Shown here in pieces: positions 646-687 of a DNA stretch of 64,000 nt. The notes under the pieces were generated by a model. The model was not told the DNA's origin. It searched no databases and worked only from the letters and a program-made list of their open reading frames with translations. Position numbers and translations under genes: made by a program. Every line of letters starts with the position of its first letter. Within the stretch, counting starts at the first letter, position 1. This stretch comes from Antedon mediterranea (lineage: Eukaryota; Animalia; Echinodermata), in the NCBI RefSeq assembly GCF_964355755.1, contig NC_092671.1, forward strand, positions 29,332,104 to 29,396,103, in the 5' to 3' direction.

Positions 646-687
<42 letters not shown>
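646..687 (+). other. 42-bp ectopic copy of the 28S R2 target / helix H69 region in the IGS
   Basis: AGCGCGGGTAAACGGCGGGAGTAACTATGACTCTCTTAAGGT identical to 8720-8761. Confidence 0.97.

What the first reader, a model, noticed from the sequence alone, without database searches (positions are those of the whole stretch)
646..687. Perfect copy of the 28S R2-retrotransposon target site in every intergenic spacer: candidate decoy
Seen: AGCGCGGGTAAACGGCGGGAGTAACTATGACTCTCTTAAGGT is 42/42 identical to 28S 8720-8761 and lies ~250 bp past the 28S 3' end in all 7 spacers (646, 10145, 19630, 29020, 38469, 47948, 57438). Identity stops 1 nt after the TTAAGG/TAGCC junction; the copy continues TAGAAAT instead of AGCCAAAT. 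I saw no other rRNA fragment in the IGS. Established: TTAAGG/TAGC is the conserved R2 non-LTR retrotransposon insertion site. Bombyx R2 protein reads an upstream motif (about -34 to -22) plus the bases from about -6 to +1. The same spot holds the TTAA used by Pokey and the I-PpoI homing site CTCTCTTAAGGTAGC. Inference: the copy (-41 to +1) covers roughly the R2 recognition footprint and little else, at 1:1 with the real site and outside the mature rRNA. It could divert insertions or titrate the protein, acting as an rDNA-encoded defence. The alternative is a neutral R2-generated scar spread by concerted evolution; identity among units alone cannot separate these, because the whole unit is homogenised.
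Basis: partly seen in the sequence, partly recalled or inferred. Interest (0 to 1): 0.9.

Follow-up and report, generated by a model that had tools for sequence, protein, structure and literature searches.

The report
Retrotransposon decoy sites in rDNA spacers
Every ribosomal DNA repeat of this animal carries, in its spacer, an exact spare copy of the landing site of the R2 jumping gene; unrelated small animals carry similar copies trimmed to the part that the R2 protein grips, so these copies likely act as decoys that would draw R2 away from the rRNA gene, which is untested.

Summary
Observation confirmed: a 42/42 copy of 28S positions -41..+1 around the R2 nick lies about 250-270 nt past the 28S end in 7 of 7 spacers. 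It holds both motifs that Bombyx R2 needs. It is not a one-off. Among 77 spacer families from metagenome contigs, 7 of 11 28S-derived fragments come from this site, where about 5% was expected (P about 2e-7). L006 has the same two ends. L060 has eight sites that keep two 7-nt blocks perfectly (112/112) while the middle (16/32) and left flank (24/80) drift. The kept part, about -37..-19, matches published R2 zinc-finger/Myb footprints, not the 28S leader that R2 RNA carries. Best reading: a retained protein-binding site acting as an R2 decoy (0.45). Rivals: neutral scar, host Myb-type terminator, or a site that recruits R2 for recombination. Not shown: R2 in this species, binding, or any benefit; 70 of 77 families show no copy. 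The scan noted similar arrays before on other DNA (e1-7814042, e1-9176058; unchecked). Four literature searches found no description.

The parts
646..687 (+). Spacer copy 1 of the 28S R2 target, positions -41..+1 relative to the bottom-strand nick (nick between 686 and 687)
   Evidence: 42/42 identical to 28S 8720-8761; numbering from PMC10499050
651..657 (+). Block -36..-30 of copy 1, kept in spacer copies of other animals; inside the Myb-side footprint
   Evidence: footprints in PMC11204384
662..668 (+). Block -25..-19 of copy 1, kept in spacer copies of other animals; the stretch that R2Tg off-target sites match
   Evidence: PMC12222951
681..687 (+). RASIN nick motif -6..+1 of copy 1, intact including +1; bases +2..+5 differ from 28S in register
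   Evidence: PMC10499050
10145..10186 (+). Spacer copy 2
19630..19671 (+). Spacer copy 3
29020..29061 (+). Spacer copy 4
38469..38510 (+). Spacer copy 5
47948..47989 (+). Spacer copy 6
57438..57479 (+). Spacer copy 7
8720..8761 (+). Source site in 28S, uninserted (also at 18205, 27618, 37062, 46523, 56022)
595..645 (+). Unique pyrimidine-rich left flank (10094-10144 in the next unit); the part 10110-10141 has a high-copy 90-99% match in organism C
514..594 (+). 9-nt tandem array before the flank (9 copies here, 11 at 9995-10093)
703..730 (+). T run of 28 (30 in one unit), 15 nt after the copy
6194..9877 (+). 28S rRNA gene of the first complete unit
   Evidence: Rfam RF02543

Best explanation
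The spacer holds an exact copy of the R2 recognition site of 28S, likely kept by selection as a binding site that would act as a decoy for the R2 protein. Shown: the copy, its ends at -41 and +1, one per unit, and the recurrence of such copies in other animals with the footprint blocks kept. From published work on other species' R2: these bases suffice for binding and nicking. Inferred: (1) a piece of 28S was captured into one spacer, probably during repair of an R2 break, and spread by concerted evolution; (2) R2 protein binds the copy through its zinc-finger/Myb module; (3) in this window the copy would be nicked, but because +2..+5 differ from 28S, an R2 whose RNA needs downstream 28S homology to prime would stall there, and an insertion that did succeed would miss the mature rRNA; (4) shorter copies in other animals, which lack the nick motif or change the middle bases, would bind without cutting. 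Either way fewer R2 proteins would reach 28S.
For: Copy = RUM + RASIN at native spacing, with +1 kept; for Bombyx R2, changing +6..+37 kept nicking and TPRT while changing +1 abolished nicking (PMC10499050 passages). Survey: 7 of 11 28S-derived spacer fragments (family level, E<=0.01) overlap -41..+1, against an expected share of 0.038-0.050; P 2e-7, and 6 of 10, P 3e-6, at E<=1e-4. The -37..-20 18-mer is found (<=2 mismatches) in 5 families; each of 67 other conserved 28S 18-mers in at most 1. 13 of 15 blast-found copies start at -37..-42, L006 has the window's two ends; published footprints run from -37 (ZF1-Myb) and -40 (ZF3-2, full-length protein) (PMC11204384 passages). Two-block motif: 16 sites in 6 families including the window at the native 4-nt gap, 0 at nine other gaps, mean 0.07 in 30 shuffles. 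L060: 8 sites, both strands, 0 block mismatches and no sites at 1-4 mismatches; middle 16/32, left flank 24/80; its long copy is 36/37 over -37..-1, 11/21 over +1..+21, 46/51 over +22..+72. R2Tg needs 3' homology to prime (PMC12222951 passages); echinoderm R2s occur in that three-finger branch (PMC13188248 passages).
Against: No R2 was seen in the window (6 of 6 28S sites, 7 of 7 copies empty) and its presence in this species is untested. 70 of 77 families show no copy at E<=0.01 (only 49 have >=1 kb of spacer). The window's three nearest rows (L033, L024, L066; 995-1487 nt read) lack it, and so does the complete 2357-nt spacer of L056, sister row to L006. One extra site per unit would at most halve R2's hit rate. 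Five of L060's eight sites change -27, which Bombyx R2 needs for nicking and reads with its RT loop, so the binder may be a host protein without RT. The two blocks were chosen after seeing L060; the excess of changes in -29..-26 is modest (9 of 21, P 0.02) and -29 lies in a CpG. In the window itself flanks and copy are equally invariant. Bombyx has many RUM-RASIN matches outside rDNA that are rarely used.
Confidence: 0.45

Rival explanations
1. Neutral scar. R2 breaks make this 28S stretch the piece most often miscopied into the spacer; concerted evolution fixes it; it does nothing.
For: R2 is known to duplicate 21-26 nt of upstream 28S at its 5' junctions (PMC3774820 parts 2 and 4). The window's copy ends at the nick. 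Patchy spread, absent from a sister row's complete spacer. This alone explains the enrichment at this site.
Against: Leader-type duplications start at -9..-36 (mostly -28) and end at the nick; 13 of 15 copies start at -37..-42, 7 of those 13 stop at -19..-6, before the nick, and the other two start at -11/-12 and run past it. A -36 leader could explain the -37/-38 starts, not -40..-42. L060 keeps 112/112 block bases beside 24/80 flank bases.
Confidence: 0.2
2. Host binding site taken over from 28S: a Reb1/TTF-1-type Myb protein would bind it to stop RNA polymerase I or replication forks; R2 breaks only supplied the raw copy.
For: Position just past 28S, where Reb1 and TTF-1 sites lie (PMC5368702 passages); pyrimidine-rich tract before and a T run after; the 31 nt beside the copy are kept at high copy in organism C while sequence further left is not; -37..-31 resembles the budding-yeast Reb1 site (recalled); L060 sites lose the bases read by R2's RT loop.
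Against: Neither block alone nor the -37..-31 heptamer is enriched in 71 non-carrier families (e.g. first 600 nt: 5, 2 and 1 families against shuffled means of 5.6, 3.3 and 2.8), so no widespread host factor uses it. Copies lie at 235-2500 nt and on both strands, whereas the yeast barriers are polar. The same protein would then also sit inside 28S.
Confidence: 0.2
3. Tamed R2: the copy would steer R2 nicks into the spacer, where breaks promote unequal exchange and rDNA copy-number recovery without harming 28S.
For: The window's and L006's copies keep the nick motif. R2 was proposed to maintain rDNA copy number (Nelson et al. 2023, seen only as cited in PMC10946416 passages). Spacer repeats next to the copy vary in number between units.
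Against: Most copies in other animals lack an intact nick motif. A site that is cut tends to be lost by conversion from uncut variants (inference). No break or recombination data.
Confidence: 0.12
4. Assembly artefact or an RNA-level role (helix-69-like piece in the 3' spacer transcript).
Against: Seven units that differ elsewhere all carry it; the flank is in an independent sample; diverged, repeated, two-strand copies in L006 and L060 cannot be assembly joins, and many of them drop the -18..-7 half of the hairpin region.
Confidence: 0.03

Closest known systems
Canonical R2 target in 28S (RUM -34..-22, RASIN -6..+1; PMC10499050) and R2 N-terminal footprints (PMC11204384)
   Same: Same bases and spacing from -41 to +1; the part kept across animals matches the ZF1-Myb and ZF3-2 binding region.
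   Different: Lies in the spacer, outside mature rRNA; nothing downstream of +1; one per unit here, up to eight in L060, on either strand.
Duplications of upstream 28S at R2 5' junctions, from the ribozyme-cut leader (PMC3774820)
   Same: Copies of upstream target sequence; the window's copy ends at the nick.
   Different: Those are 9-36 nt, tandem, inside 28S and joined to R2. This is 41 nt upstream, far from 28S's site, joined to no R2 sequence, and relatives often stop short of the nick.
Reb1/Ter and TTF-1/Sal-box terminators and fork barriers (PMC5368702)
   Same: Protein-binding-like sites shortly after the large rRNA gene, often repeated; Myb-domain binders, as in R2.
   Different: Not known to be copies of rRNA coding sequence; polar in yeasts, whereas these occur on both strands; no enrichment in non-carrier spacers.
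Schistosoma R2 elements said to insert in the rDNA intergenic spacer (DeMarco et al. 2005, seen only as cited in PMC3636483)
   Same: R2 activity inside the spacer.
   Different: Whether they land on a 28S-like copy was not stated in the passages seen; no element is present here.
Titration of transposase by defective elements (recalled)
   Same: Spare binding sites would soak up the element's protein.
   Different: There the spare sites are element ends; here they are copies of the host target, built into the unit that is attacked.

Membership tests
Functional R2 target site | RUM -34..-22 intact | tested here: met
   42/42 identity covers it
Functional R2 target site | RASIN -6..+1 intact at native distance | tested here: met
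   +1 kept (for its importance)
Functional R2 target site | Downstream bases +2..+5 that pair with the 3' homology of A-clade R2 RNA | tested here: not met
   only +1 matches 28S in register; need shown for R2Tg in PMC12222951
Functional R2 target site | Bound, nicked or inserted into by R2 | not testable with these tools
R2 5'-junction duplication (ribozyme leader) | Starts 9-36 nt upstream of the nick and ends at it | tested here: not met
   starts at -41; 13 of 15 survey copies start at -37..-42
R2 5'-junction duplication (ribozyme leader) | Joined to R2 5' sequence inside 28S | tested here: not met
   followed by 15 nt, a T run and microsatellite in the spacer
R2 element or internally deleted derivative | RT/endonuclease frame, or element ends followed by downstream 28S | tested here: not met
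   no stop-free frame of 200 aa in the spacer within 378-13200; no downstream 28S in the spacer
Pol I terminator / fork barrier (Reb1, TTF-1 type) | Located shortly after the large rRNA gene | tested here: met
   249-267 nt after the 28S end
Pol I terminator / fork barrier (Reb1, TTF-1 type) | Motif common to spacers of the group, one orientation | tested here: not met
   no enrichment in 71 non-carrier families; both strands in L006 and L060. Terminator motifs are lineage-specific (recalled), so this lowers but does not exclude it
Pol I terminator / fork barrier (Reb1, TTF-1 type) | Transcript ends or fork arrest at the site | not testable with these tools
   only contigs were offered, which show no RNA ends
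Pokey or I-PpoI target | Element present in this lineage and full recognition site | not tested
   Pokey listed for Daphnia in PMC10946416; I-PpoI site extent recalled only

The most novel reading that the evidence does not exclude
Animal rDNA spacers repeatedly evolve a built-in defence: copies of the binding footprint of whichever site-specific retrotransposon attacks the unit. R2-site copies arose independently in at least five scattered lineages plus this one, were trimmed to bind-but-not-insert forms and amplified; the 18S-derived copies (18S 1091-1142, two families) and the -11..+31 copy would be the same device against R8-like and R4-like elements. Spacers would then record each lineage's retrotransposon history and help explain why R2 fills only part of an rDNA array.
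Probability: 0.35. Interest if true: 0.9.

Novelty: categorically new. Interest (0 to 1): 0.76.

Why it matters
How hosts keep R2 to a fraction of their rDNA over hundreds of millions of years is an open question, and spacer subrepeats are usually read only as promoters, enhancers or terminators. A target-site decoy encoded in the attacked unit would be a new kind of host defence, and it is directly testable: R2 proteins, footprinting and nicking assays exist, and natural variants (full site here and in L006, two-block sites in L060) are ready-made substrates. Even if neutral, the pattern is a natural footprint of R-element proteins and could point to target sites of elements not yet described. 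It also bears on R2-based gene insertion, since natural bind-only variants map what the protein needs.

Tried and rejected
No whole genome is held, so R2 could not be sought in this species; the findings index holds nothing for this genome or look-alikes. An exact 25-nt search for close relatives in metagenome contigs found 0. Run X7 (organism B, 0.54 of words) gave no laid contigs, which the tool says proves nothing. Left flank as an antisense piece of 28S 9387-9403 (15/17): 36 of 500 shuffles score as high, not significant. Downstream bases as a repaired remnant of +1..+10: 728 of 5000 shuffles and 97 of 610 spacer 12-mers score as high, rejected. First dereplication chained 22 loci through the conserved 28S end and was replaced by clustering on spacer sequence. 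L044 was dropped before counting (chimera with a poly(A)-binding-protein frame); L051 has no spacer. L021's two weak copies (E 0.03 or worse) are left out of the enrichment count; L090 (E 0.004) drops out at the stricter cut. Own-spacer against own-28S in 18 loci gave no fragment at E<=0.001. The review table placing Inachis io R2 in the spacer is not borne out by the source passages, which place it in 28S. The target positions of R4, R8 and R9 could not be confirmed. The tree's label test was uninformative (6 carrier rows; 190 of 500 shuffles as low).

Full report
What is there. The window is a tandem rDNA array with a unit of about 9.4-9.5 kb. A 42-nt stretch of 28S (8720-8761) recurs exactly in each of the 7 spacers, about 250-270 nt after the 28S end; 13 matches in all, none in 100 shuffles. 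Identity stops sharply at both ends, and no other rRNA piece shows in the spacer. The order is: 28S end, about 115 nt, a 9-nt tandem array, a 51-nt pyrimidine-rich flank, the copy, 15 nt, a T run, then microsatellite-laced subrepeats. Units differ at 45 substitution columns, none in the copy or its unique flanks. The 18S looks echinoderm-like to me; this is recalled, not tested.

Is it real? Twenty public runs hold part of 9500-13200, five of them of organism A in two studies. On the 66 nt beside it (4 of the 20 runs): X1, probably the source, gave 738 records; X5, another sample and study, gave one contig, exact over 41 nt and running on towards the copy; X7 gave none; X12 (organism C, 0.26 of words) gave 29 records, nearly all 90-99% alike and up to depth 25,000, only over 10110-10141, with one loose end further left. 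So a second organism keeps the flank next to the copy at high copy number. Whether it has the copy was not seen, and an unrelated repeat is possible.

What the copy covers. In R2 numbering it is -41..+1. For Bombyx R2 the needed parts are RUM (-34..-22) and RASIN (-6..+1) at fixed distance; +6..+37 can be changed, +1 cannot, and the RT loop reads the central bases of RUM (PMC10499050, passages). Zinc-finger/Myb footprints cover -37..-25 and -21..-15, A-clade N-termini bind only upstream, ZF3-2 needs -40..-21, and the whole Bombyx protein covers about -40..+20 (PMC11204384, passages; PMC12180492, passages). Zebra-finch R2 needs 3' homology to prime, and its off-target sites match -25..-19 (PMC12222951, passages). 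The copy therefore has what is needed to bind and nick, but only +1 of the priming bases. R2 is reported from echinoderms (PMC5035012 and PMC13188248, passages); it was not seen in this window.

Survey of other spacers. A motif near the 28S 3' end fetched 100 metagenome loci (about 300 estimated; 80 with full flanks). One chimera was dropped and one locus had too little spacer, leaving 98 loci in 77 spacer families, 49 with at least 1 kb. Blasting spacers against the window's rRNA gave, at family level and E<=0.01, 7 fragments overlapping -41..+1 (L006, L010, L015, L030, L060, L090, L095), 4 from four other 28S places and 2 families with 18S 1091-1142. From the 28S of 17 long loci, 3.8-5.0% of detectable fragments should overlap the site; P is 2e-7, or 3e-6 for 6 of 10 at E<=1e-4. 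Reversed spacers gave 2 hits at the loose cut and none at the strict one. The site was fixed beforehand by the finding. As a second control, 67 other conserved 18-mers hit at most one family each, against five for -37..-20. Carriers with enough 28S fall in several separate supported groups, the window's nearest row is 76% identical, and no spacer aligns with the window's, so gains look independent; repeated loss is not excluded. From recalled signatures the carriers look flatworm-like (L060, L015, L090), nematode-like (L010, L030) and mollusc- or annelid-like (L006); no reference was available to test this.

Shape of the copies. Thirteen of 15 blast-found copies (5 families) begin at -37..-42; L006 has one with the window's exact ends; seven of the 13 stop at -19..-6. 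R2's RNA leader begins 9-36 nt upstream, most often at -28, and junction duplications are 13-26 nt ending near the nick (PMC3774820, parts 1, 2 and 4 of 7). That fits poorly. L060 carries eight sites, three forward and five reverse, within 400-920 nt of the 28S end; all keep -36..-30 and -25..-19 without a change, none is found at 1-4 block mismatches, while the 4-nt middle is 16/32 and the left flank 24/80 identical to 28S (right flank 44/80, raised by two long copies). Its long copy is disrupted mainly at +1..+21. Over all carriers the two-block motif occurs 16 times at the native gap and never at nine other gaps. The animals' own 28S is unchanged at -29 in 20 of 20 long loci, yet -29 is the most often changed base in the copies. 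The blocks were picked after seeing L060, and most of the constraint signal rests on that one locus.

How it most likely works. The pattern is that of a protein-binding site under selection, and the one protein known to read these bases is R2's. I put the decoy reading at 0.45: capture of a 28S piece (inferred), spread by homogenisation (inferred), binding by R2 (predicted from other species), stalled or harmless outcome (predicted). The neutral scar (0.2) explains the enrichment but not the ends or L060. A host Myb-type terminator (0.2) fits the window's position and the kept flank in organism C, and the loss of RT-loop bases in L060, but the motif is not enriched in 71 non-carrier families. 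Recruitment of R2 for recombination (0.12) fits only the copies that keep the nick motif. Against any essential role: 70 of 77 families show no copy, including the window's three nearest rows and L006's sister L056.

What is known. Searches of the held library found no description of such spacer copies: 20 papers, listing; 0 papers with decoy, rDNA, retrotransposon, intergenic spacer and insertion site; 8 papers, listing; 3 papers; passages read. A 2024 review of rDNA and transposons has no occurrence of 'decoy' (PMC10946416, passages). PMC12203849 (passages) and PMC10257491 (passages) add nothing on this. Schistosoma R2 is said to insert in the spacer (as cited in PMC3636483). Subscription journals are mostly not held and I opened no supplements, where spacer annotations could sit. 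Earlier notes of this scan describe R2-site arrays in spacers of two other animals and a spacer copy of another element's 28S target; they are unchecked, read them mainly as relics, and are not counted as evidence.

Verdict. Real, recurrent and apparently undescribed; the link to R2's recognition site is strong, selection is likely, the defensive function is a hypothesis with clear tests.

Noticed in passing
L055:400-481 of spacer, L057, L059 (one family) and L031:629-823 of spacer: Two or more diverged copies of 18S 1091-1142 on both strands in the spacer, a second hotspot. The stretch resembles the R2 upstream motif and lies, from memory, where R8 inserts; not confirmed.
   Followed up: partly
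L030 spacer 154-195; L090 spacer 126-148: Copies that span the nick and downstream (-11..+31, -12..+11) instead of the upstream motif; from memory R4 inserts a little downstream of R2, and L030 looks nematode-like.
   Followed up: no
L010 spacer 645-730: Antisense 79% copy of 28S -1464..-1379 beside two R2-site copies; from memory near the R9 site. L010 may be a decayed rDNA unit.
   Followed up: no
L058, L071 spacer 574-881; L045 spacer 417-453; L038 spacer 681-745: Further 28S pieces in spacers: a 15-18-nt piece at -1065 repeated in subrepeats (weak, E 0.015), +117..+153, and -566..-502.
   Followed up: no
window 917-3220: Seven spacer subrepeat cores separated by 5-nt microsatellite; the last core runs into a TATA-rich, G-run motif near 3200-3215 that resembles a Pol I start (recalled), so the others look like duplicated promoter upstream parts without the start.
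   Followed up: partly
window, fourth aligned unit (starting 28752), about 90 nt into 28S: A 34-nt deletion in one 28S copy, and scattered single-unit substitutions in 18S, 5.8S and 28S; variants or read errors.
   Followed up: no
window 10110-10144: Flank block kept in organism C has a 15/17 antisense match to 28S 9387-9403, including bases unusual to this species; not significant by shuffling, 36 of 500.
   Followed up: yes
L024 spacer 126-227: Tandem duplication of the last 100 nt of 28S in one of the window's nearest rows.
   Followed up: no
L051:315-2846; L044:246-2324: Chimeric-looking contigs: an 843-aa frame with no Pfam match that looks like a narnavirus-type RNA polymerase (recalled) joined to a 28S end, and a poly(A)-binding protein frame among 28S pieces.
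   Followed up: partly
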